Part shown: positions 23,795 to 56,873 of the stretch, one piece after another
How the letters are laid out: each line of letters begins with the position of its first letter
Numbering within the stretch: position 1 is the stretch's first letter
DNA from: Plasmodiophora brassicae
Lineage: Eukaryota
Direction of reading: 5' to 3'
Assembly (NCBI GenBank): GCA_036867785.1
Contig: CP145411.1
Coordinates: 1,550,001-1,614,000, forward strand
DNA: 64,000 nt
Notes under the pieces: generated by a model
Told to the model about the DNA's origin: nothing
Seen by the model: the letters and a program-made list of their open reading frames with translations, nothing else
Database searches by the model: none
Program-made: the position numbers and the translations under genes

Positions 23795-24544
23795 TTATGC
23801 CGCTCCGAATTCGATGGCTTCGCCTTGCGCCTGCGATGCTGCCGCCCGCCTCGCGGCCAACCTCGCGTCGATCCGTTGCATCTCGGCAATGATCGCGGGC
23901 CGTAATCGCTCCAGGGGGCCGAGGATGCGCCGCTCGATCGTGCGGATGTCGTGGTGCTTGATGAGGCTGGCGAACAGCGGGCCTCCTCGCGACGTATCAC
24001 GCGCGAGGAACCGCAACACGGTCGCCATCTTTGTCGGCATCGCTGTGCACAGTGACCGGACGTTTCCGATGCCGAACGCGTCGAGGCGCATCAGCAGGAT
24101 GTAGATGATGACGCCGTCAATGTCGCGGTCGCACTGTCGCAACCCGGTAATCTCGTCCAGCATCGCGTTGATCATTCGCGACTCCTTCTCGATCGCCGCC
24201 GTCATCTCCAGGACGAACGCTTGGTCCTTGGCCGATAACGACGGGTACATGGTTGGCAGATTATCGGCTAGCTGTTTCGGCGGGGGCAAACGCGTTCGGA
24301 ACGCGAACTGGGACCCGTAGAACGTGCTCGCTGTTCGTAACAATTTCATCAAGGGCCGTGCCGGAAGGTTCGGGTCGATCGACAGCGGCAACGGCTCGCA
24401 GCTGGTCGACGATGCCGACGAGGCTGATTCACCGCCCCATGACGGTTTGACTCGGTGGACGCGCTTAGGGGTCTCACGACACGCTGACGACATGTGCGAG
24501 ATTTCGTGCGGGATCCACGGGCGATCGTCGATATCTTCATGCAA
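23795..24544 (-). CDS. Hypothetical protein resembling the CFAP99 N-terminal domain
   Basis: Single ORF of 249 aa; DQAFVLEM, IIYILLMRLDAFG...KMATVLRFL and DIRTIERRILGPL recall the CFAP99 N-domain. Confidence 0.45.
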   Translation of the reverse strand: MHEDIDDRPWIPHEISHMSSACRETPKRVHRVKPSWGGESASSASSTSCEPLPLSIDPNLPARPLMKLLRTASTFYGSQFAFRTRLPPPKQLADNLPTMYPSLSAKDQAFVLEMTAAIEKESRMINAMLDEITGLRQCDRDIDGVIIYILLMRLDAFGIGNVRSLCTAMPTKMATVLRFLARDTSRGGPLFASLIKHHDIRTIERRILGPLERLRPAIIAEMQRIDARLAARRAAASQAQGEAIEFGAA

Positions 24545-24584
24545 GCGGTGGCGACTTGCTGTGTATTGAGAGGTCGGTTTCCAT

Positions 24585-25211
24585 CTACGACTCCTGGACG
24601 ACCTCGCATCGATGAGCCTGCGGGAATCGACTGGAGTGCCCTTTGTGAGCGGCGATGAAGGCAGGGCTGTATCCGACCAGACGCGCCACTTCGTCGACAG
24701 ACTTGCCGCGATACTGTGGCGCGTTCAGGAACGGGCAACCTGGCATGAAGCCCAGCGCCTGTAGCTGTCGTTCACTCATCCGCGACAACGGGACCCGTCC
24801 CCATTCCTCGATCGTCAGCTCCCTGCCAAGAAGGTGGGCGATCTCGCGCAGCTCGGGATCAGTATAAACGTCGACTTGCATGCGCTCCTGGTCGGTAATC
24901 CTGGTCTGCTCCTGCCTTGGCGTCGATCGAGCCGGCTGCGGCGTGTTGTTGACGGTCGGTTTTCGGTAGCGCCACAAGTCCCACTGCATTCGCAGGAACA
25001 TCGACGCCATAACGATGGGAAGGATCAAGTACAGCCAGCTAGGGTTGAACGGGAACCACTTCGGTGGGCCGTATTTCAGCTCTCGCATCCCGCCAGGCCC
25101 CACATTGTCGCGACCCATGTTGAACAGCAGGCCGTCATCAGGGTTGTCGGCGTTGGCGGTTGCGCATGCGTCGAAGACGACCATGGCCATTGCGATGCAT
25201 ACAGACAGCAT
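24585..25211 (-). CDS. Type I membrane protein of unknown function
   Basis: Signal-like MLSVCIAMAMVVFDACATA and a single TM segment WLYLILPIVMASMFL. Confidence 0.6.
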   Translation of the reverse strand: MLSVCIAMAMVVFDACATANADNPDDGLLFNMGRDNVGPGGMRELKYGPPKWFPFNPSWLYLILPIVMASMFLRMQWDLWRYRKPTVNNTPQPARSTPRQEQTRITDQERMQVDVYTDPELREIAHLLGRELTIEEWGRVPLSRMSERQLQALGFMPGCPFLNAPQYRGKSVDEVARLVGYSPAFIAAHKGHSSRFPQAHRCEVVQES

Positions 25212-25468
25212 GCTATGACGACCTGACGGCACTCGCCGGCGCGTTGATAACAGAACCTTGGCCAGGGCTTTGCACCTTCGCACGACTATTGCTATGCTGC
25301 GACACCGACTGCCTTCTGTAACGGTATGCCATGCAGCATCGCAAGCGTACTGCTCGTCTGCTCACGAACAAGGGCGCGGCGCGCTTCACATTGCAAGGTG
25401 GATTGAAGCATAAAGAACCTGGACAATCAAATTGTAATGATACACTGCAACGGAGAACGGCGGTACAC

Positions 25469-28400
25469 TTATTTCTTGCGCTGTCTCATCGCGAGCTCCT
25501 CCATCATGCTCATGGGCTTTCGAGCAGGAGGTGGCTTGGGTGCAGATGCCGCCTCGCTTGCAGGCACGGACGTCTTCGACAGCTTCTTTCCTGCACGGAT
25601 GGCCGCCATCAACTCAGACCGAGCGTCGTCACCTGCAAAGAGCGATTCAGGTGCTGAGTCACAATTACAGACACGTCGACGAACCTGAGGCATTCGACAA
25701 GGGCGGTGGAGCAGACGCGTTCGATGGTGGTGGTGGAGGCGGAGGCGCTCCGCCCAAAGCCGGCGGAGGAGGCGGGGGCGGAGGCGCCCCGCCCAAAGCA
25801 GGCGGAGGAGGCGGAGGCGGAGGCGCTCCGCCGCCCAAAGGTGGAGGAGGTGGAGGAGGTGGTGGCGGTGCTGACGCTAAGGGAGGCGGAGGAGGATGCC
25901 GAGCAACTCCACCCAACGGAGGAGGTGGCGGTGGCATCCCTCCCGCCAATGGTGGCGGTGGAGGTGGAACGGCACTGGCTATTGGTGGGGGTGGCGGAGC
26001 AGGACCAGAACGAGCAAGGGGAGGGGGTGGTGGCGGAAGCCCTGAGCCAATCACTGGTGGTCGCGGCAGTCCAGTTGCAGGTGGAGGAGGAGGAGGAACA
26101 CCTCGAGTTATCGGAGGTGGAGGGTTTCGCACCTGAGTCGGTGAAGGCGGCGGTGGCGCTCCAGTAACAGGAGGGGGAGGCGGAGGCGGGTGACGACCAG
26201 CGATGGGAGGCCTTGATGGAGGGGGCATTCTACCAGCTAATGGAGCCGGAGGTGGGGGACCACCTGGTGGGGCGTTACTACCCGCCGACAAATCAACAGA
26301 TGATGGAAGCGGAGGAGGAGGAGGCGGCGGTGGCACAGCAGTCGGTAATGAAGGAGGCCCAGCGACGACCTGGGGCGGTGGCGGTGGTGGAGGCGGTGCC
26401 GTGGATTGGGCGTTCGGTGGAGGTGGCCGTACTGGTTGACGCAATGCTGGTTGCGGAGCGACAGGCGGAGGAATAGGAGCAGGTGGAGCAGGGGGTGCAA
26501 CGAACCCTGACGGCATGGAGCCGATCTGGGAGGCAGCGATCGACTGCTTTTGAGGTGGCATAGCACCAGGAGGTGCAACCGTCACATTGCTACTGACCCT
26601 GCGAGCTGGATACACACATTTAGAAATGAGATGATATGCAAGACCGTCCCGAATGGCTTACAAGCAGTATCACTGGCGTTTACAGACACGTCTTGATCCG
26701 GGCGGAGCATCACAACAGGGCGCTGATTAGGGCTCTCGATATGGGCTTCGCAGATCGAGAAGATGTAGCTGTTGAGCAGCTTGATGCTAGAGCCTTCCTC
26801 AAGTATCCGTTTCACAAACGGGAATAACTGATTCAAGATGGTTAGACCAATACCAAACGGTAGCTGTCGGGCGTAACGAACGAACCTCTTGTTCAGGCGT
26901 CAGCTTGGATTTCTTGGTCTTCTTGACGTCGACGAACAAGTTCGTCGGAGCGATCATCTGCATGCGAAGAATGTAGTAGACGAAGTCTAGCGCTTCGAAT
27001 CGCGAACGGAATCCGCAGATATGAAGAAGGGTGACACCAGCCCATGAAAACCCATCACCAAACGTTTGCTTGTCCGACAGCTTCGTGCCCTCAATCTGCT
27101 CAGGTGTTGGCGTGAGGAATATGAACTGCATGGCCGACCAGAGCCGGCACAAGTCTCGAGGCGTCTCCAGATCCAGAACTCCATTGGTAGCAGGCTTACC
27201 GAGCCACTCCCCCAGGGCTTTCGATTTTTGAATGCTGGCGTACAGCCGGTCAAGGCAGACCGTCAGTAGGGGAGTCTCCACTCTGGAGCTGAATCCCCCC
27301 AGCAGTGCACAAGTCTGAGGCATGTATCAAACAGGGACACATCTTACATATGCCACTGAGCTGACCTGCTGCGCGCATGTTCTTAAATTCGCTGGCAGGG
27401 ACATGTCGCGTGACAGTTTGTCGAAGATGGGGATTACCGATGCTTCCGCTACCTGGACGAGCTTACCATTGGCATCAGCAGAGATTCCCATGAACTGGGA
27501 AGCGATGTTGAAATCCCAGAGGTTGCTTTCGCACAGGGCGAGAGACAACTGGTGAATGAAAGCCAGAGAATTGCCCTACGATCCGGTTGGTTAACGTGCA
27601 TGCAACTGCCATAGTGCACAGCGGAACATACAATTTCCCTCAAGATCTGAAACAGTTGGGACCGTAGGTTATCGTACGCGGCCAGAGGCTTGAGCTTCAG
27701 GTCAAAGTAACCGTACCCGCCGATGACACCATACTTGAGCGATGGAAGTTTGATAGGATCCATCGAATCCATCAACACCTTCGCGTACGATGCAAAGACG
27801 TAGTTCACCTGGGGAACAAGTCAACCGCCATCCCATTCATTCAGTGGCCATTCGGACCTTATCCTCCATTGAAGAGCACAACTGGTCGAAAAGCGTCGTA
27901 AGGTCCTCCACATCAATCAAATTGAGAACGGCCTGAATGTGCTCATTGCCAAAGTACTCGCGCGACACTTTGAGAGCATCGGTGAACGCTTTGTTGAATC
28001 GGGCCGTATACCAGAACTGCGACATAAACGGCGGCATCGAATCACGAGGAGGCGGTTCAACGAAAGACACAGGGCCGCGGTTGAACAATTGCATCGGCGT
28101 ATCGAAACAGAAGTTTGGAAAGACATCAGCGACAAGTTCGGAAAACACGTGAACAACGATGCGGCCACGGAAAGGCGCAAATCGTGTGTTCTCGTTGACC
28201 TCACTGAATATCGTCTCGTACGGGTCCAGTGTCAGGTGCTCCGCAAGCAGCCGATGCGCCAGTTCCGTCTGCTCGAGTATAGACTTGAGCTCGACAATGG
28301 ACGTCAAATCGCTGCTTTCAAAACGCGCAATGGCCATATCCACGTTCTGCCTACGACGTGTTACGTGTAAGATGATGGAGAGTAGATTCAACTTTGCAAC

Positions 28401-31400
28401 ATTGCCAACAACCTGAAATAGCCATTGATGTGCTGTGCTAGCAGCCGCCGTAGATCAACTGAACGACCAAGAAGACGGACGTCGCGTTGTTCAAGAAGCG
28501 CGATATACCTTGGGAAGATGATTAGATTTGAGACGCAAAAGCAAACGTTGCGGTGAAGTACCCCGAAGCGGTTGGGTCATATTTACGCCAGCACCTCGTT
28601 CGTTGTTCAAGCACCTGTTTTTGGTCATGGTCAAGAAGGATCGCAGACGCAATGCCTTTGAAACATGTGAACACATTCATCGCGAGAGTGTAAACCTGCA
28701 TCGTTATTAGTTACTGCCTTGCCCCACATCGGAATAAACGACTGACAAGAGTGTTGAACGCCAGATTCAGCTCAGCTTCTATTTCGCGAAACAGGAACTG
28801 CTGTTTCATTTGAGTGAGTGCCCGAGAAGCAGCATCATTGTAAATGTCCACGCAGAAGAACAGGTTGTCGGATATGGCAGGCACAGAAATAACGTGCTCG
28901 GCCAGCAAGAACGGAAGCGACATGGAGATCGGAAATTGGACGCACTGTTTCAGCACACAATTCCATGAGTTCAGTGCGCATACACTGAAGAAATCCTATC
29001 AGACCTTCGTGATCTCCAGATAGAACTCCCTAAACCACAAGTCGCTCATATCGGTACAAGCATCAAGCGTTGCTTTGAAGTCCAGGACGTATGAGTAGAA
29101 GAACGTCCTTTCATAGAAGCGCTCAAAGTCTGGGAGCTGGTCTTTCTGGATGTCTTTCTCGGTGAACATGCCCCCCTGCATCCCTTTCGACTTTTCAGAG
29201 AAAACCTGAAGAGATAGACGCCTAGCAACGGTTTAGATTATACGGGGGGCGTGAATAGGACAATCCCACCTGATGAGGAAGAGTTGGGTAGTCGAAGGCT
29301 GAACGCAGCGCTTGGGAAAATCGTGGGATGCGTTCTTCATGTTCTTCGAGCGGGTCTTGTAATCGAGGGATTGTGTGGCGTCTGGAGCCCAGTCGGCACC
29401 AATAGACCGCATAAGGCACATAGCTTGGCGCACTTCGTCACGTCCTGGGGGCGCATTCAGAGAACACAAGCAACGACCAGGGCGTTTCTCACTAACCTCG
29501 TTTGTAGGCTTTGCGAAGAGGCCTAGATAGCGTTGTCTGGAGGTATTCCTGCAATTCATCATGCATTGCGCGCCTGATTACAGGCCCGACGTATGTCTCG
29601 GAATCGCGAAGCATGAGACCGACCCCTGAAAAAGGTGAGCTCACCGCAGCAACCTATGCGAAGCAGCGACACCTTTGAGCATGCTAAGAACATCGCTAAG
29701 GACCGTCAGCTCCGCTTTGGAATAGTTGTATCTGTCAACGCATTCGAAGTTGAACCCGTTCCCTTCGGCACCTCCGAGGCCCTGAGACCAAGAAATCGAA
29801 GATGTCAGTAAATATAACAGCACGTTCATGAAGAACGCCCTCACCGGAATTGTCTTAGGATCAACTGGGTTTGCCCGTTTGAACGCGGATTGTTCTTTGA
29901 TCGCAGCATGCCATTTCGACATTAATCGAAACCCGTCAACAACGCGGTCGAAGACTTCACGCCCTGTCGCACGGTCCATTGGCGAGTCATCGTGGCCTTG
30001 CGCCCGGGCTTTGACTGAGTTCAGAACCTGGTCCGAACAAGCGTTAGGCACCGAACCCAAATAAAATGACAACGATTGTTACCTGCAGGAACGTGTTGGT
30101 GAATAAATTGTACTCAGCCTGAATCGACTGCCTTTGGTTGATGAGCAGGAAGTGTCCCATATCACCGCCGATCCACTGGCTTTCCATTTTCGCTTCATCG
30201 TAATTGCAGCATCGCCGCAACACGAACTTGATGTTGAGGTGCTACACGATACGCCTCAGACGAATGCGGGGAATCGGACAGAGCGAAACAAGAGTACCAT
30301 ATCACCAAACAGGGGAAGGTATTGATATCCGCGGAAGACCTGTCTGATCGCTTCTATCTGGAAGCGTTTCGCCTTGAAAGCGTTTGCCGTATTTTTCGTT
30401 TCTCCGTCAAACAGAAACACGGTATTGATCAGCACGCGTAACAGCATATGCTTCTCGTCCGCTAGCATATACATCTTCTTGTTCAGCGCAGCGAGCGCAT
30501 CGTCGGCGATCAGAATAAGGACCTCCTGATAGCCAGAGATCTTTTGAATCTCCGTTCTCAGGTGAGTGATGATGAGGTCATTGGGATGCTGCGGGTTGCC
30601 CAAGAACATTTGCAGATTGTGAATGTCATCGGCAATGGAATCAGAATCTGGGATTTCCGCCCTGATATTGGAGAACGACCGCTGCAGAAACAAACGTCAG
30701 AGGGTGTCGACATAGCGAAGGGGTACACGTATTTACCTTATATCGCGCGAAATCATTCTGGAAACAGGCCTTCATGTCCTTCAGGGAATCCAGTATCGCT
30801 AGCCTGTCGATCACTTTCTGAAGCATGCGGATGTGCTCGTCGCTGCACACCTCGTTCTTGGACGCGGGTTGCACCTGTCCCAAATCAGCGGCCAGCCGCG
30901 GCAAGAACAGGTGCCGCTCCGTACCATTTGCCTGTAGGTGCGAATGAAGACAGCGATCGCCCTCTCGTGAAAGGCCGAAAATTCGTGCAGTTTGGCAATT
31001 TCGGGACGCAGAACCGCGAACGTTCTAGAGCGAAACGTCAGACTTGCTGCCGCGCTGACTCCAGTGGACGTCCTGCCATACCGATGATGGATGTCTTTGC
31101 GTGCTTCGTCATCTACTTCATTCTTCATCATCGGCAGCGCTTTTGAGCAACTCCTGTTAAATTCCGAGCACGGTCAGCAGAGCATGCCAAACGGTTAGAC
31201 AGTAAGGCCGAACCGGTAGGAGTAGATCATTGAAATGAACCGGTTGCTCTCCTCGAAAACCTCATCCAGCGCTGTTAGGTTCTCGACCTCCTGCGTGGGA
31301 CGTCCTGTCAGAACGCACGCGAAGGCAAGCCGACAAGGAGGGTGACCTCTGTGAACGGCGTTTCATACGCTCGGATATCGAGGTACGTCTTCGACGGCGG

Positions 31401-31592
31401 CACTAACACGACCTGGTCAGATCGGACCAATACGAGACATCCGCATGGTCAACGCATACCGATGGGATCGACCGCAATCGATATGGACGCGGTCTCGATG
31501 TTGGCTCCCGACGCGAAGACCGGGATGTCATCCAGCGCGCGGACCTTCTCCAGCAGGACGTGGTCGTCGGCGGGCGCGGCCATGGACGCCAT
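25469..31592 (-). CDS. CYFIP: CYFIP/Sra1/PIR121 homolog with a C-terminal polyproline-WH2 extension
   Basis: CYFIP motifs [77 protein letters not shown] and FGDGFSWAG. In-frame splices (26606..26661, 25633..25684) lead into the Pro-rich exon and the WH2 exon. Confidence 0.9.
25725..25870 (-). repeat. Coding minisatellite, about 36-bp units encoding PPPPPPP(A/P)LGGA
   Basis: Three near-identical ggaggcggaggcgc(t/c)ccgcccaaag units within the polyproline exon. Confidence 0.8.
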
Positions 31593-43066: not shown

Positions 43067-46000
43067 TTACAAAGAGACGCGTTCCGGTTCTTGTTTCTTG
43101 GGGGCCTGGTGGCGCTTGATGACGTCCTGGCGGCGTCCCCGGCAATGCAGGCGAACATGTCGTGCCAGTTGCACGACGTCGCCTTCGTTGACGACAGAGG
43201 CCGACACGGGAACCGTAACGTTCTCGAGCTCGGTCCGGAACGTGATCGACGACACGAATGACCCTTTGGAGGACGCGTATAGTTCGACCTCGACACGGGA
43301 CGACATGCCGGGTGCTAGTGGCCCTGGCGTACGTACCACCCGAATACAAGCGTCATCGGCAACGTTGTCAATCGCGAATCGACCCGCCTCCAGGCCCACG
43401 TTCGTGACGCGTAACGCCAGGCGATAGGTATTGCCGACGGCGACTGCCCCGAAGAACGCTTCGGCAGGTTCGATGCGCATGAGGGCATACGCCACGAGTG
43501 TAGACGGGTTCCCGACTAGGGACCGACTGATCTCGCCACGGTACGCGGCCGCTTTGATCGTCGCTGACGTCCGCAAGCGTCGCCGGGCGCTCGCCTCCCG
43601 CTGAGCGAACGATTCCGGGCTGGGAGATCGTGCGATCATCGTTGTTTGCTTTGCAGGCTGTGGTGATGGCGATACGGATGGCGACAGCTCAACGAGCTTG
43701 ACGGCTGCTGCCGTATCCACGCGTCCTGGCTCGATGGCAGGTGGCGCCTGCTCGCTGCCAACGTTCATGCAAAGGCGCTGCAGGCGATACGATTCGGCGG
43801 TCAGCGCGTCCAAGGCATCCTTGAACGCACCCAGGTCGTGCTCGATCCCGAACGTCTGCGTCTCCGGGATGGCTTGCAACCCAAGTGCCTCGAGGATACG
43901 ACCAGCATTCGCCTCTAGTCGAGCACAGGACGCCAGCAGACCTGAGTAGGGTGCCCTATGTTTACCATTAGCAACTCACTGCGAGAAACTGGAATCTGTC
44001 CCCATACTTGCTCAAATCGATGAGGTGAAGGTTCTCGGTGGAGGTATCATTGGACGGCTCTAGGACGCGGGAGAGGAGCAAAGCGAACTCGTCGAGGGCC
44101 TGAAGGACGGTGATTTGCTCTGTGGTGCTGATGCTGGTATCAGTCATGCGTCGTTCGCCACCACGGCCCGAGCGTGCCGTCAATCGCTGAACGGCTTTCT
44201 GCGTGTCGAACGCCCTGGATACCGCCGGATCGTTGAAGTATCCGACGTTCAGTGTACCTTCGTCGTCCACATCGCGGTGAACGGAGCGCGGTCTACCACC
44301 TCTTCGCCCTTCCGCTGGAACATCCTTCTGCACAGTCGACTCGTTCTGTTGCTACTGTTAAGACTGTGGGTTCCGCAACGAAACATGTAGACCTGGGAAT
44401 GCGATGACGGTTCGTTCGCAGCTGCACGTCGATCGAGAATGGCACGCTGGAGTTGGCGTTGTTCCTCGACTTCATAAGCAGATCGGTCCTCCACAACGGT
44501 GGCGTAGAGCTCGTCGTTGGCCTCGTCACGAGTGCGTTTGTCGCGCCAGGCCTGCAGGTCGCTGAGCGCCCGACTGTCATTTGATTCAGAATGTGTCTTG
44601 TGCAAAGCAACGACAGGAGAACCTCATTTCATCGTTGGACAGAGGCGCGTGTTCGACCAAGGCACGTGCGATAATATATGGAGATGGTACGTGGTCGTCA
44701 TTGGATTCAAGAACGGTGGAACACCCGGCTCCTGTTGAATCGTTTGTGAGAATACGACCTGCGTTAGTCCTCAGCCGTACCTCCGCGAATAATGTTCGGG
44801 ATCTCCATTGCCATCGTAAACTTTCGGCGTCTGGTGACCGGTTGATGGGTAATGAACGTTTTCGGTGCGACGTTGCCCTCGCCAGGCCGTACAATGATCT
44901 GACCAGCGATTAGCTCCGCAATGCGCCCACAGATGATCAAGCTGAACCTGAGGGTCCAGGACCACAACGTCTTGGGTTCGGGCGGCGTCGCTCTGTAGGC
45001 GAACGACATCGGTTTGTCTTAGGTATTCCGTACCGGAACCTTTCGCACGTAACAAGAACGCTCGTGGTTCGATGGGATCCTGTGGCAAATATTAAGTCTC
45101 GGCGTACGAGCTAGAAATGGTGTGCGTACCTCGGGTCCTGCATAGTACTGAACGGGAATCGGGTCTTTCTCTTCTGACCCAGGAATAACGTTATTTGATT
45201 CCATGCGTAGCTTCCTAGAGAATGTCCCGTCGTGGCTCAACATGAAGTAGTTGTCGTCAGCGTCCAGCGTGCTCAAACGACCGCCGTCATAGGTGTAGCA
45301 CCGTGCGATCCGATCCTGTTGTACAATCTTGAGTCCTTCGGATGAACCGGGCTACCCGACGATAGAGGTAACCTGTGTGCGCCATTGCTCTGGCAAGGTG
45401 AACTCCCCGCCGGGGCAGATGATCGTCCTGGACGATGTCGCCACGATACGTATGTTGTCAATCGGGTTCGAGCAGGACATGGTACCGGCCGACAGGTCCA
45501 GTGACACAGTCGCCTGCTGCTCGGCGATGACCTCAACCGCAACTGGCAAGGAGTTGCTTAACAAAACGCTGAAATGCTGATCGATTGCCTTACCTGGACC
45601 ACGCTCGCCTTGTTTGATAATAACGTTGCCCGCGAATGGCGTCTCGATGCGCGTGATACCCTTCTCGAACACGAACCGGGTGCTGTCGGGGAACACGATC
45701 ACCCGGTTGCCGCTTACATAATCGATCGTCATCACGCCATCAGCCCGCGTCGTGATAACTGCTGACGATTCTGGGTCCGTCTGAGACACGACCGCAACGT
45801 TTTCAGCGTCTTTGTCAACGGAGGACAGAAAGGATCCATCTGGAGCCGTGCTCGTCCAGGTTGAATTGCGACTGTATCGTGTTAGGCGCCCATCGGTACC
45901 GTACACGTCAACGGTTCCGTCTGCATGTTTCAGCACGACGTGTCCATCCGTATGGATCACGCGATAGAAGTCGCTAGTGGGGCTCTGGCGACAGGTGACG

Positions 46001-49530: not shown

Positions 49531-49792
49531 CAAGGCCGTTCGGTGTCGTTGCCCGTACCTCGCGCTTCCCTCAGTTCGATGCGGCATTCCACAACAGTTA
49601 TATACGTGATTACACATTACCCAGGCGCCGTACTATTGAATAGGAGTGCTGCCGGTGCAACCCACGTCTATTTTGAAAAGGCGCGAGCCCGACGTCTTAC
49701 GTTTCCATTCGACGAATGATCAATCGTCCGTCCACGAAATTCGGCGTAGGTTTTTGGAGACTGGAGGCCAGTCCGAAGTTGTGACGAAGGGA

Positions 49793-51255
49793 ATGGCGAG
49801 TGACGACAGTGATGCCTGGCGGGAGGCGTTCACAGCGGCGATCGCCGATGTGGGTGATGGCATGACGTACAGGCAGGCGGCCGACCGCCTGCGTGCCGTT
49901 ATCCGCACCGGGCTCCTCGGTCTGACGGACATCGTCGAGCGCCCGCACCGGTTCTTCGAGGCGCACCGCCTGATTGCCAGACAGGCGACGCGCCTCGGTC
50001 CTGGGTTCTTTATCCGGTTCACGGTGCACTATAACCTGTTTGCTGGCACCGTTGTCGCGCTGGGCACGCGCGAGCAGATCGCCGCCCTGCTAGCCCGGAA
50101 CAAGCAGCGCGCGCGCCTTGGCTGTTTCGGCCTCACCGAGCTCCTAGCCGGCGTCAACAGCGGCCTCGTCGTTGAGACGACTGCCACCTTCGATGCCGCG
50201 TCGAACGAATTCGTCATCAACACGCCGAATCCAGGGGCGGCCAAGAACTGGATATCCCAGGGCCTTGTCGCCGACGAAGGCGTCGTCGTCGCCTCGTTGA
50301 CCGTCAACGGCAAGAAGTTCGGCCCGCAAGCCTTCCTGGTTCAGTTCCGAGATGACGTTGGCACCTTGCTGCCCGGTATCCAAGCCGTCGACATGGGACG
50401 GAAAACGGTCGGCAACGATCTCGACAATGCGCGCCTGACCTTCACGAAGGTTCGCGTACCACGCTCGGCACTGCTATCGCGATACCTGGAGGTTCGCGCC
50501 GATGGGAGCGTCGTGCAGCCCAATGGCCAGCATCGGACGATGGAGATGATCGGGCAGCGACTATTCACTGGTCGTGTCGCAGTGGCCTATGCAGCGCTGG
50601 AATTCACCAAGTCGCTGCTCGCGAATTGCCATGCATTCGCCGACCAGAAGCCGTGCTGGGCACCGAATGGACGTCGTCCCAGTCTGAACGAGGTGCCGCA
50701 GATCAACGCGATTTTACAAGACGGCAATCGCCAGCTCGGGCAGCTGTTCTCGTTCGTTTCGCAGGTCGAGAAACAACTTCGCAGCGACCGTATTCCGTCT
50801 CTGGGGTTACAGCAAGCTATTGCTGTTGCCAAAGTCAAGGCTGTCGAAACGTCGATTGCGCTCTGCTTCGCCCTGAAGCAAGAGGTTGGATCATACGCGC
50901 TCATGGCTGGCACGGGATTTGAACAGATGGGTTTGATGCGGCAATATGATATCGCATACTGGTTTATCGAGACTGAAACCCGTCCTTAGACTTCCTGCAG
51001 TGCTGCAAGTTCGCCGAGGGCGACAGTCGCATTCTCATGCAGAAAATGGCCAGGGACATCGTTCGATCCGGGCCCAGGAACGCTTCGGAATCCGCCGCCC
51101 TCAAGAAACTCCAGCAATCCATGAAGGCATCCGGCAACACCGATAAGGCCGCCGCCTGGGATGCCGCCTGGCGCGAGGTCTACGGCCTCGCCGACGCGCA
51201 CATGTCCGTCATCCTACAGTCGTTCGGCGTCGGTACCCTGTCCTCACGTCTATAA
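49793..51255 (+). CDS. Peroxisomal acyl-CoA oxidase/dehydrogenase-family protein
   Basis: FTVHYNLFAG, GCFGLTE, INTPNPGAAKNWI, GNDLDNA, CKFAEGD; intron 50931..50989; PTS1 -SRL at the C-terminus. Confidence 0.9.
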
Positions 51256-55557: not shown

Positions 55558-56873
55558 ATGCCTCGGGGATGCGCACGCATTGGTCCCACACTCGGCGTGC
55601 TGCGATCCCTCGTAGTGGTCGCTGTAGCCTGTCAGGCGGTGACGCTTCGTTCCAGCGACGGTGCTGACCATGCTGTCGATACCTGGTCCGCAATCGCCCA
55701 TTCCGGAATGTTGCGGCATCTCATCGATGACCCCGACGCATGCGCCGACCTGGTCGTTCCGTTGCCTGGCGTCGCCGATACCGAGCTTGGACGGATCGTC
55801 GAGTTCGTTGACGCGGTCAATGTACATCAGGTACATTGTCATGTCCTCCGAAAGGCCATCTCTGTTCCCTGATGCTGCAGCGACAGTTCAGACTGGCTGC
55901 CCAGTGGGCCAGAGACAGGCCGGACGTGCTGAAGCCTGAGTCGCGTTGCCAGTTGCTAATAGCCGCCAACTACCTCGACATGCGGTTTTTAACGATAGCG
56001 ATCGCGTCCACGACGTCTGTTCGTCGCGATATCCCTGCGATGCAGGGCGCGCTTCCCGAGAATGTATTTCGATTCGTAACAGGCATCGCCCAGCTGGCCC
56101 ACGCCGCGGACACAGAGGAAAAGCAGGCGCTCGCCGCCCAGATCCACGATGTCATCGTTCGAGACGGCAACGCGACGAACATGAAGGCCGCTGTCTCCCT
56201 GATCAGTTACGCCGTCTGGGATGCCTGGTTGATGCACACGGTGCTGCAGTGGGCGGCGATTCACGCAGAGGAACTCGTTGTCGAGCTGCTGGTTATCTAT
56301 GTCCCCGGCATCGCCGTCAACCTGCCTGATAGGATCAAGATGACGCCGTTGCACATGGCCGTCGCTGCTTGCAGCGTTGGTGTCGTTGAGCTGCTTTTGA
56401 AAGTCCCTGACATCAACGTCAATGCTCGCGAACCTCGTCGAGGAACGCCTCTCCTGTGGGCCGTTACCTCCGGGCAGGAACGTATCGTCGAGGTGCTGTT
56501 GAAGGCCCCCGGGATCAACGTTAACACCTGCGACGCCGACAGGAGGACCCCGCTGTACATGGCTGTGAAGGTTGGACGTAGAGATATCGTCGCGTTGCTT
56601 CTGACCTCCGCTAGGATCGACGTCAATTCTCGCACCAGGGACGAAAAGACGCCATTGCACAGGGCGTCGATCAACGGGCGGGCCGACCTAGTCGAACTGC
56701 TACTGAACGCCACTGACATCGACGTCAGCGCGTGCGACAATCTGCAGAGGACGCCGCGCCAGTGGGCTGCGATCAAGGGATACGACCGCATCGTCACGAT
56801 GCTGCTGCGGGCTACTCCGAACGCAGTCGACCGGTCGCATCACGACGGAGCCGCCGCCGCGTGCTCCGGATAA
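55558..56873 (+). CDS. Secreted SKP1/BTB-like plus ankyrin-repeat protein (candidate effector)
   Basis: Hydrophobic signal, VTLRSSDG...LGRIVEF...LLIAANYLDM (SKP1/POZ-like), then about 5-6 ankyrin repeats (TPLHMAV, TPLLWAV, TPLYMAV, TPLHRAS); intron 55831..55880. Confidence 0.85.

What the first reader, a model, noticed from the sequence alone, without database searches (positions are those of the whole stretch)
25469..26900. CYFIP/Sra1 fused to its own polyproline-WH2-helix actin module
Seen: after the normal CYFIP end ([11 protein letters not shown]), canonical 56- and 52-nt introns (26606..26661, 25633..25684) keep the frame into about 300 aa of polyproline, then [21 protein letters not shown] and [19 protein letters not shown]. 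Known: the first matches the WAVE WH2 (DARSxLLxAIRxGxxLRKV), and the second resembles a WASP-family C helix or the Ena/VASP F-actin-binding GLMEEMNAMLARRRK. In the WAVE regulatory complex these elements belong to SCAR/WAVE, and Sra1 sequesters them until Rac binds. Inference: the Rac-binding scaffold here carries its own profilin/actin-binding tail, possibly autoinhibited in cis. With no acidic-Trp segment it may be a Rac-gated elongation or actin-delivery module rather than an Arp2/3 activator, i.e. a rewired WAVE complex.
Basis: partly seen in the sequence, partly recalled or inferred. Interest (0 to 1): 0.85.

Follow-up and report, generated by a model that had tools for sequence, protein, structure and literature searches.

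The report
CYFIP gene with polyproline-WH2 tail
A protist gene for CYFIP/Sra1, the Rac-binding scaffold of the WAVE actin-regulatory complex, is spliced in frame to a long polyproline stretch, an actin-monomer-binding WH2 motif and a short basic helix, so the scaffold appears to carry its own actin-recruiting arm.

Summary
On the minus strand a 23-exon CYFIP/Sra1 gene (CDS 31592..25469, 22 GT-AG introns of 47-63 nt) encodes about 1639 aa: 1278 aa of CYFIP plus a 361-aa tail. cDNA-like contigs from three runs of three studies each carry both disputed junctions (26606..26661 and 25633..25684 removed) in one 5.0-7.5 kb contig. A DNA run shows no joints. So the fusion exists at mRNA level.

The tail is 41% Pro with 13 runs of at least 5 Pro. 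It then has a WH2 above Pfam's gathering score (24.8 against 23.1 bits) and a terminal helix ending in RQRKK. It has no Trp and no acidic segment.

The polyproline part is not unique. Of 68 long CYFIP representatives, 13 end in a proline run, and they come from several eukaryotic supergroups. The WH2-helix exon was found in none of 150, and 0 of 20 tailed homologues have a Pfam WH2.

Actin or profilin binding, Rac gating and cis autoinhibition are inferred, not shown. No whole genome is held, so SCAR/WAVE, Abi, Nap1 and Arp2/3 could not be looked for. I rate it a new variant of a known kind, of moderate to high interest.

The parts
26662..31592 (-). CYFIP/Sra1 coding part: 21 exons and 20 introns, 1278 aa, start ATG at 31592
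   Evidence: Pfam FragX_IP on exon translations, 137.9 and 75.4 bits. 3P8C_A matches E 2e-25 and 1.4e-13. Of the 20 introns here, 13 are joints listed and confirmed GT-AG. One (30242..30297) follows from contig coordinates. The six N-terminal introns are placed by homology plus GT-AG only; the borders of the first two are ambiguous.
26606..26661 (-). 56-nt intron joining the last CYFIP exon to the polyproline exon (phase 1)
   Evidence: Joint 26605/26662, skipping 56 nt with ends CT..AC on the + strand, in 1 contig each of X7, X10 and X12 and 0 contigs of DNA run X4. GTAAGC..CCAG. GC 43% against 55% for the CDS.
25685..26605 (-). Polyproline exon, about 307 codons, with FH1/PRD-like xPPPPPPP repeats
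   Evidence: Translation: the whole 361-aa tail is 41% Pro, with 17 runs of at least 4 Pro and 13 runs of at least 5 Pro. No Pfam family. Colinear in the RNA contigs; the repeat stretch 25789..25876 was skipped by the tool, but record coordinates stay colinear.
25633..25684 (-). 52-nt intron before the terminal exon (phase 1)
   Evidence: Joint 25630/25683 (cut +2), skipping 52 nt, in X7, X10 and X12 and not in X4. GTTCGT..TTGCAG.
25556..25630 (-). WH2 motif ([20 protein letters not shown]...)
   Evidence: Pfam PF02205, 24.8 bits against a cut-off of 23.1, E 1.6e-5, residues 1-25. Spire WH2 in PDB, E 1.4e-4. AF2 helix at residues 2-12, block pLDDT 85.
25472..25513 (-). C-terminal helix with basic end ([14 protein letters not shown]); stop codon at 25469-25471
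   Evidence: AF2 single-sequence model: helix at residues 42-51 of the 53-aa peptide, block pLDDT 91. No family match. The hydrophobic moment is no higher than in shuffles.
25316..25468 (-). 3' UTR, at least 58-153 nt
   Evidence: RNA contigs of X10 and X12 end at 25316 and 25411. CDS 4920 nt + 153 nt + 81 nt of 5' UTR equals the 5154-nt X10 contig.

Best explanation
This is a genuine, expressed fusion gene. One mRNA of about 5.15 kb encodes a protein of about 1639 aa: a complete CYFIP/Sra1/PIR121 scaffold continues into a 361-aa disordered tail. The tail has about 300 aa of polyproline tracts, one WH2 motif, a 19-aa linker and a short helix ending in RQRKK. All of that is shown. The rest is inferred. 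The CYFIP part keeps the residues used for Rac binding (A-site Arg190; D-site Tyr967 and Gly971) and most residues of the surface that holds WAVE's WH2 and C helices. So it most likely still works as the Rac-regulated scaffold of a WAVE-type complex at membranes. By analogy with the PRD-WH2 units of WASP-family proteins and the polyPro-GAB-FAB unit of Ena/VASP, the tail would act as a monomer-delivery or elongation arm. The polyproline tracts would collect profilin-actin, the WH2 would hold a G-actin and pass it to nearby barbed ends, and the basic helix would contact F-actin or acidic membrane. With no acidic-Trp segment it should not activate Arp2/3 by itself. In evolution, a polyproline C-terminal tail is widespread in protist CYFIPs, and this lineage added one more small exon (WH2 plus helix) behind it.
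For: The fusion is real. Three cDNA-like contigs from three studies (7547, 5154 and 5006 nt) carry both joints and the other CYFIP introns, and the DNA run carries none. The frame is open to the single stop. WH2 is above Pfam's gathering score, with a Spire WH2 hit in PDB. Two helices are predicted at the expected places. The tail has 13 runs of at least 5 Pro. CYFIP identity is supported. Residues map as R190=R, Y967=Y, G971=G, L697=L, Y704=Y, F844=F, L841=V and W845=S, and S is the commonest residue at that column among 64 aligned rows. Polyproline tails ending the protein occur in 13 of 68 long CYFIP representatives, including transcriptome ORFs marked complete. Buracco et al. (bioRxiv 10.1101/2022.05.14.491902, abstract read) report that the complex's proline-rich domains, not the VCA, are indispensable. 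That makes an extra proline-rich domain on the scaffold functionally plausible.
Against: No binding was tested. No orthologue of the terminal exon was found, so there is no evidence of purifying selection on it. WH2 scores only 1.7 bits above threshold. The terminal helix matches no family, and its hydrophobic moment is not above shuffles (44% of shuffles reach it). Whether SCAR/WAVE, Nap1, Abi, HSPC300, profilin or Arp2/3 exist in this organism is unknown. The RNA status of the runs is a guess on record, and contigs cannot show minor isoforms such as retention of intron 26606..26661, which would give a tail-less CYFIP. The analogies to Ena/VASP and to WASP-family PRD-WH2 elongation are recalled knowledge.
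Confidence: 0.6

Rival explanations
1. The tail is a cis V-C mimic. Its WH2 and terminal helix dock on the CYFIP surface that normally sequesters WAVE's WH2 and C helices and are released by Rac. They would either compete with SCAR's WCA or replace a lost or degenerate SCAR VCA.
For: The contact residues L697, Y704 and F844 are identical, and L841 is conservatively replaced by V (residue list from Schaks 2018 passages). The WH2, 19-aa linker and helix layout resembles V-C spacing (the comparison is recalled). No SCAR was found in the rhizarian B. natans in Fritz-Laylin 2017 (table passage). That bears on this only if the organism is a rhizarian, which is unproven.
Against: W845 is Ser here, and this surface is variable among protist CYFIPs, so its conservation says little. 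No docking prediction was possible, because the spliced protein is not accepted by the folding tools. Conservation of L697 and Y704 is explained equally well by an ordinary SCAR partner.
Confidence: 0.15
2. The tail is mainly a docking or spacer region. The ancestral polyproline end would serve SH3, WW, EVH1 or profilin partners, and the terminal WH2-like exon would be a recent exonisation with little or no actin function.
For: Polyproline ends without WH2 are the common state (13 of 68; 0 of 20 with WH2). No relative of the last exon was found anywhere. WH2 is only just above threshold.
Against: A WH2 placed directly after a proline-rich domain is the standard functional arrangement in actin regulators (established knowledge). 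The E-values are 1.6e-5 against Pfam and 1.4e-4 against PDB. The exon is constitutively spliced in contigs of three studies.
Confidence: 0.17
3. Artefact: two adjacent genes (CYFIP ending at 26582 and a separate Pro-rich WH2 gene starting at an internal ATG) or a chimeric assembly.
For: Unspliced, the CYFIP frame closes at 26582, and in-frame ATGs exist early in the Pro-rich exon.
Against: The GT-AG joint 26605/26662 physically links the last CYFIP exon to the Pro-rich exon in cDNA-like contigs of three studies, and it is absent from the DNA run. The contig length fits one mRNA. The space between the 26582 stop and the first in-frame ATG of the Pro-rich exon is only a few tens of bases.
Confidence: 0.03

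Closest known systems
CYFIP1/Sra1/PIR121, scaffold subunit of the WAVE regulatory complex (PDB 3P8C chain A)
   Same: The first 1278 aa are homologous to it: Pfam FragX_IP and 3P8C_A matches. Rac A-site and D-site residues and most WH2/C contact residues are kept.
   Different: Human CYFIP1 is 1253 aa (chain length) and ends where this protein's tail begins. This protein adds 361 aa of polyproline, WH2 and helix. The WIRS-pocket residue Y923 is Val here (residue named in Schaks 2018 passages).
Polyproline-tailed CYFIPs of other protists (Pharyngomonas P0023, Rhodelphis P0029, Fabomonas P0017, Rigifila P0004, Stygiella P0103, Balamuthia P0007, Planoprotostelium P0043, Paulinella P0008)
   Same: A CYFIP followed by a C-terminal proline-rich extension of roughly 80-260 aa with xPPPPPPP repeats.
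   Different: Those proteins stop within 0-4 residues of the last proline run. None has a WH2 (0 of 20) or anything like the terminal exon (0 of 150). Identity to the window's CYFIP is only about 35-44%.
SCAR/WAVE and other WASP-family C-terminal PRD-VCA modules
   Same: The order is proline-rich domain, then WH2, then a short helix, as in PRD-V-C. WH2 is met by Pfam.
   Different: There is no acidic-Trp (A) segment, and the protein ends at RQRKK. There is no WHD or WH1 head. The module sits on the subunit that normally sequesters the VCA.
Ena/VASP EVH2 region (polyPro, G-actin-binding WH2-like motif, F-actin-binding basic helix)
   Same: The order and spacing of polyPro, WH2-like motif, a linker of about 20 aa and a Met/Glu-rich helix ending in basic residues look alike. 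This comparison is recalled and was not tested by a tool.
   Different: There is no EVH1 domain and no tetramerisation coiled coil; the protein ends at the helix. No Pfam hit other than WH2 was found on the terminal exon.

Membership tests
CYFIP/Sra1/PIR121 (Pfam FragX_IP PF05994) | Profile match above the gathering score | tested here: met
   137.9 bits (exon ORF 27837-28454) and 75.4 bits (26799-27326) against a cut-off of 23.3. 445 library hits at E<=1e-3, and 20 of 20 scanned hits are FragX_IP proteins.
CYFIP/Sra1/PIR121 | Rac-binding A-site Arg (R190) and D-site Tyr/Gly (Y967, G971) | tested here: met
   R, Y and G are all present (residue names from Schaks 2018 passages). The Y967 exon alone gave no PDB hit, so its mapping rests on the 64-row alignment.
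CYFIP/Sra1/PIR121 | Contact residues for WAVE's WH2 and C helices (L697, Y704, L841, F844, W845) | tested here: inconclusive
   The residues here are L, Y, V, F and S: 3 identical, 1 conservative and 1 changed. Positions 841, 844 and 845 vary widely among 64 aligned rows.
CYFIP/Sra1/PIR121 | Part of a pentamer with Nap1, Abi, HSPC300 and SCAR/WAVE | not testable with these tools
   No whole genome is held. 31 other window ORFs showed no such genes.
WH2 motif (PF02205) | Profile match above the gathering score, with an N-terminal helix followed by an LKKT-like motif | tested here: met
   24.8 bits against 23.1, E 1.6e-5. The sequence is ...[14 protein letters not shown]. Helix at residues 2-12. 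Spire WH2 hit, E 1.4e-4.
WASP-family VCA (Arp2/3 activator) | Acidic segment with a conserved Trp after the C helix | tested here: not met
   The tail has 0 Trp, 3 Asp and 4 Glu in 361 aa, and it ends ...RQRKK-stop.
WASP-family VCA (Arp2/3 activator) | Family-specific N-terminal domain (WHD, WH1 and the like) | tested here: not met
   The 1086 modelled residues that end at the tail junction (the last 1086 of the 1278-aa CYFIP part) align to CYFIP homologues up to the CYFIP end, and the N-terminal exons align to CYFIP N-termini. No room is left for another head domain.
WASP-family VCA (Arp2/3 activator) | C (connector) helix able to bind Arp2/3 | tested here: inconclusive
   A helix is predicted at residues 42-51, but it has no family match and no significant amphipathicity.
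Ena/VASP | EVH1 domain and C-terminal tetramerisation coiled coil | tested here: not met
   The protein ends at the helix. The N-terminus is CYFIP. The only Pfam hit on the last exon is WH2.
Ena/VASP | FAB-type F-actin-binding motif | not tested
   The likeness of [12 protein letters not shown] to the VASP FAB is recalled only.

The most novel reading that the evidence does not exclude
In this lineage the Rac-binding scaffold has taken over part of the output of the WAVE complex. The WH2 and helix at the end of CYFIP's own polyproline arm would be held on CYFIP's conserved WH2/C-binding surface and released by Rac. That would give a self-contained, Arp2/3-independent, Rac-gated actin-delivery and elongation machine, possibly with SCAR's VCA reduced or lost. 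More broadly, a polyproline arm on CYFIP would be an ancient feature of the complex that animals, plants and Dictyostelium lost. It would be natural evidence for the view that proline-rich domains, not the VCA, are the complex's core activity.
Probability: 0.15. Interest if true: 0.85.

Novelty: new variant of a known kind. Interest (0 to 1): 0.62.

Why it matters
In the textbook WAVE complex, CYFIP/Sra1 is a passive, inhibitory platform and all actin-binding elements sit on SCAR/WAVE. A natural CYFIP that carries polyproline tracts, a WH2 and a terminal helix is a ready-made experiment on how much of the complex's output comes from proline-rich/WH2 monomer delivery and how much from Arp2/3 activation. 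Buracco et al. raised that question (abstract read). A second point came out of this work: proline-rich C-terminal ends are common in CYFIPs of distant protist groups. Six literature searches found no description of this. It suggests the scaffold's tail is an overlooked functional part of the complex.

Tried and rejected
- No whole genome is held, so SCAR/WAVE, Abi, Nap1, HSPC300, Arp2/3, profilin and a second CYFIP could not be sought.
- The search for homologous proteins gave nothing three times: CYFIP exon with 'longer', and terminal exon with 'longer' and 'near'. The tool calls this weak evidence.
- The look-up of sequencing runs listed no holder on record as RNA. The 'RNA?' runs are guesses, and I treat them as cDNA only because their contigs lack 22 introns.
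- The library's best CYFIP hit is only 42-44% identical, so no close orthologue was available to test conservation of the tail.
- PDB searches with the Y967 exon and an N-terminal exon found nothing at E<=0.01.
- P0099 proved not to be a vertebrate CYFIP (585 bits). I used it only as a bridge for residue numbering.
- The ESM Atlas gave only sub-threshold leads: 0.84 to a WH2 (WHAMM-like) cluster.
- Hydrophobic-moment test: neither helix exceeds shuffles (fractions of shuffles reaching the observed value 0.35 and 0.44).
- No second copy of the terminal exon exists in the window.
- Complex prediction and a full-length fold were not run.
- Organism: not determined. It is a eukaryote with 57.6% GC and very short introns. 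A flagellar HYDIN/PapD-like ORF lies in the window, and the holders are plant-associated runs. From memory this fits a plasmodiophorid-like plant parasite, but nothing here tests that.
Full report
**What is in the sequence**

- The last CYFIP-like exon is ...[55 protein letters not shown].
- It is followed by a 56-nt GT-AG intron (26661..26606), a 921-nt proline-rich exon (26605..25685), a 52-nt GT-AG intron (25684..25633) and a terminal exon (25632..25469).
- Both introns are phase 1 and keep one frame open to a single stop at 25469-25471.
- Unspliced, the CYFIP frame would instead close at 26582 after 27 more codons.

**Is the fusion real?**

No whole genome is held, but public runs hold the stretch. 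I laid window:24000-31600 on three runs guessed to be RNA (X7, X10, X12; three studies) and on one DNA run (X4).
- Each of the three has one long contig (7547, 5154 and 5006 nt) in which 26606..26661 and 25633..25684 are cut out, along with 13 other listed introns of the CYFIP gene. Seven more joints were not displayed.
- All listed joints have CT..AC ends on the + strand, which means GT..AG on the minus strand.
- The DNA run has 0 contigs with any joint and is colinear with the window.
- Contigs cannot show minor isoforms or expression levels. They do show that a spliced molecule links the last CYFIP exon to the proline-rich exon and that exon to the WH2 exon.
- With the 22 introns (47-63 nt, mean 54.7, all GT-AG) the CDS is 4920 nt, or 1639 aa. 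CDS plus 153 nt of 3' UTR (to 25316) plus 81 nt of 5' UTR equals the 5154-nt X10 contig.
- Fifteen introns are listed joints and one follows from contig coordinates.
- The six N-terminal introns are placed by tblastn with homologues plus GT-AG and frame. The exact borders of the first two are ambiguous.

**What the parts are**

CYFIP part:
- Translated exons hit Pfam FragX_IP at 137.9 and 75.4 bits.
- They hit human CYFIP1 in the solved WAVE complex, 3P8C chain A, at E 2e-25 and 1.4e-13.

Tail, 361 aa:
- It is 41% Pro, with 17 runs of at least 4 Pro and 13 runs of at least 5 Pro, mostly as (L/A)[15 protein letters not shown] repeats.
- It has no Trp and only 7 acidic residues.

Terminal exon, 53 aa:
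- It matches Pfam WH2 at 24.8 bits against a gathering score of 23.1 (E 1.6e-5, residues 1-25).
- Its only PDB sequence hit is a Spire WH2 construct (E 1.4e-4).
- A single-sequence AlphaFold model (mean pLDDT 77.7) has helices at residues 2-12, the WH2 helix, and 42-51 ([10 protein letters not shown]), with a disordered linker between them.
- The second helix matches no family, and its hydrophobic moment is not above shuffles.
- ESM Atlas gave only sub-threshold WH2-type leads.
- No second copy of this exon lies in the window.

**State of the CYFIP part**

The functional residues are those listed in Schaks et al. 2018 (PMC6264382, passages read). I mapped them through the printed alignments to 3P8C_A and a 64-row alignment.

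| Site | Human residue | Residue here |
|---|---|---|
| Rac A site | R190 | Arg (preceded by Lys) |
| Rac D site | Y967 | Tyr |
| Rac D site | G971 | Gly |
| WH2/C contact | L697 | Leu |
| WH2/C contact | Y704 | Tyr |
| WH2/C contact | L841 | Val |
| WH2/C contact | F844 | Phe |
| WH2/C contact | W845 | Ser |
| WIRS pocket | Y923 | Val |

- Positions 841, 844 and 845 vary widely among protist CYFIPs, and Ser is the commonest residue at 845 (14 of 64 rows).
- The scaffold looks like an ordinary, functional CYFIP. This fits continued work with Rac and a WAVE-type partner but does not prove it.

**Relatives**

- An exhaustive HMMER search with a 164-aa CYFIP exon found 445 proteins at E<=1e-3. 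The best were only 42-44% identical, apart from a 111-aa fragment at 66%, so no close orthologue was available.
- Among the 150 listed, none contains anything like the terminal exon (best phmmer E 1.4).
- Of the 20 homologues with C-terminal extensions, 20 have FragX_IP and 0 have a Pfam WH2 at E<=0.1.
- Three word-index searches found nothing.
- Many homologues do carry a proline-rich C-terminal extension. Of 68 hits of at least 1000 aa, 14 have two or more runs of at least 4 Pro in their last 120 residues, and 13 end within 4 residues of such a run. The same ending is seen in 16 of all 150.
- Their source names place them in very distant groups: Rigifila, Fabomonas, Rhodelphis, Pharyngomonas, Stygiella, Balamuthia, Planoprotostelium, Paulinella and an MMETSP transcript. 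Several are transcriptome ORFs, and at least two are marked 'type:complete'.
- So the polyproline arm is a widespread, possibly ancient feature of protist CYFIPs. What is special here is the extra WH2-plus-helix exon spliced on behind it.

**How it most likely works**

Only the gene structure, the mRNA and the motifs are shown; everything else below is inferred.
- The protein is probably still the Rac-binding scaffold of a WAVE-type complex.
- Its long flexible tail would collect profilin-actin on the polyproline tracts and hold a G-actin on the WH2. It would feed nearby barbed ends. This is the role described for proline-rich-plus-WH2 units of WASP-family proteins and for the Ena/VASP EVH2 region, which I cite from memory.
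- The basic terminal helix could touch F-actin or acidic membrane.
- Without an acidic-Trp segment it should not activate Arp2/3 by itself.
- Buracco et al. (abstract read) report that the complex still makes protrusions without the VCA but needs proline-rich domains. That makes such an arm plausible.
- The bolder reading is that the WH2 and helix dock in cis on CYFIP's WH2/C-binding surface and are released by Rac, perhaps replacing SCAR's VCA. This is not excluded and not tested. In Fritz-Laylin et al. 2017 (table passage) no SCAR was found in the one rhizarian examined, but the organism here is not identified.

**Surroundings**

- Pfam on 31 other long ORFs of the window gave WD40/EML-like, flagellar HYDIN/PapD-like, ankyrin and acyl-CoA dehydrogenase hits, and no actin regulators.
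- The Gly-rich ORF on the + strand (25441..26136) is the mirror image of the proline codons.

**Literature**

- Six full-text searches turned up no description of a CYFIP with a polyproline or WH2 tail.
- The Kollmar et al. 2012 passages mention CYFIP only as a complex member.
- Supplements were not available and could list such architectures.

**Verdict**

I rate it a new variant of a known kind, with interest 0.62.

Noticed in passing
Proteins P0003, P0004, P0007, P0008, P0015, P0017, P0023, P0029, P0041, P0064, P0066, P0075, P0103 (library hits, not in the window): 13 of 68 long CYFIP representatives from distant eukaryotic groups end in a run of at least 4 prolines within 4 residues of the C-terminus (...PPPPPPP-x-COOH), often after 80-260 aa of proline-rich repeats. 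This looks like a conserved but undescribed C-terminal feature of protist CYFIPs.
   Followed up: partly
window 24000-25316: The X7 cDNA-like contig runs on unbroken from the CYFIP 3' end through the downstream region (ORFs 24588-25361 and 23798-24724, minus strand, no Pfam hit). X10 has a separate contig at 24000-24520 with a different depth. This could be tightly packed genes or overlapping or read-through transcripts.
   Followed up: no
window 43070-43975 (-): An ORF with flagellar PapD-like / HYDIN-type Ig domain hits (E 3.3e-11), suggesting that the organism builds flagella.
   Followed up: no
window 55812-56870 (+), 12282-14655 (-), 49640-50986 (+): An ankyrin-repeat ORF (E 1e-32), WD40/EML-like beta-propeller fragments and an acyl-CoA dehydrogenase middle-domain hit. 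None is related to the finding.
   Followed up: no
window 25441-26136 (+): A 231-aa Gly-rich open frame on the opposite strand of the polyproline exon. It is a mirror artefact of CCN codons, not a gene: all splice joints are minus-strand GT-AG.
   Followed up: yes
window 25789-25876: The near-perfect repeats coding [13 protein letters not shown] caused the read-laying tool to skip this stretch and broke a small DNA contig. Copy number of these repeats could vary between strains.
   Followed up: no
P0058 and P0102 (library hits): Two CYFIP homologues carry other odd C-terminal extensions: a His/Trp/Glu-rich repeat (possibly a frame-shifted reading of a repeat) and an acidic Glu/Tyr/Asp-rich tail after short proline runs.
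   Followed up: no
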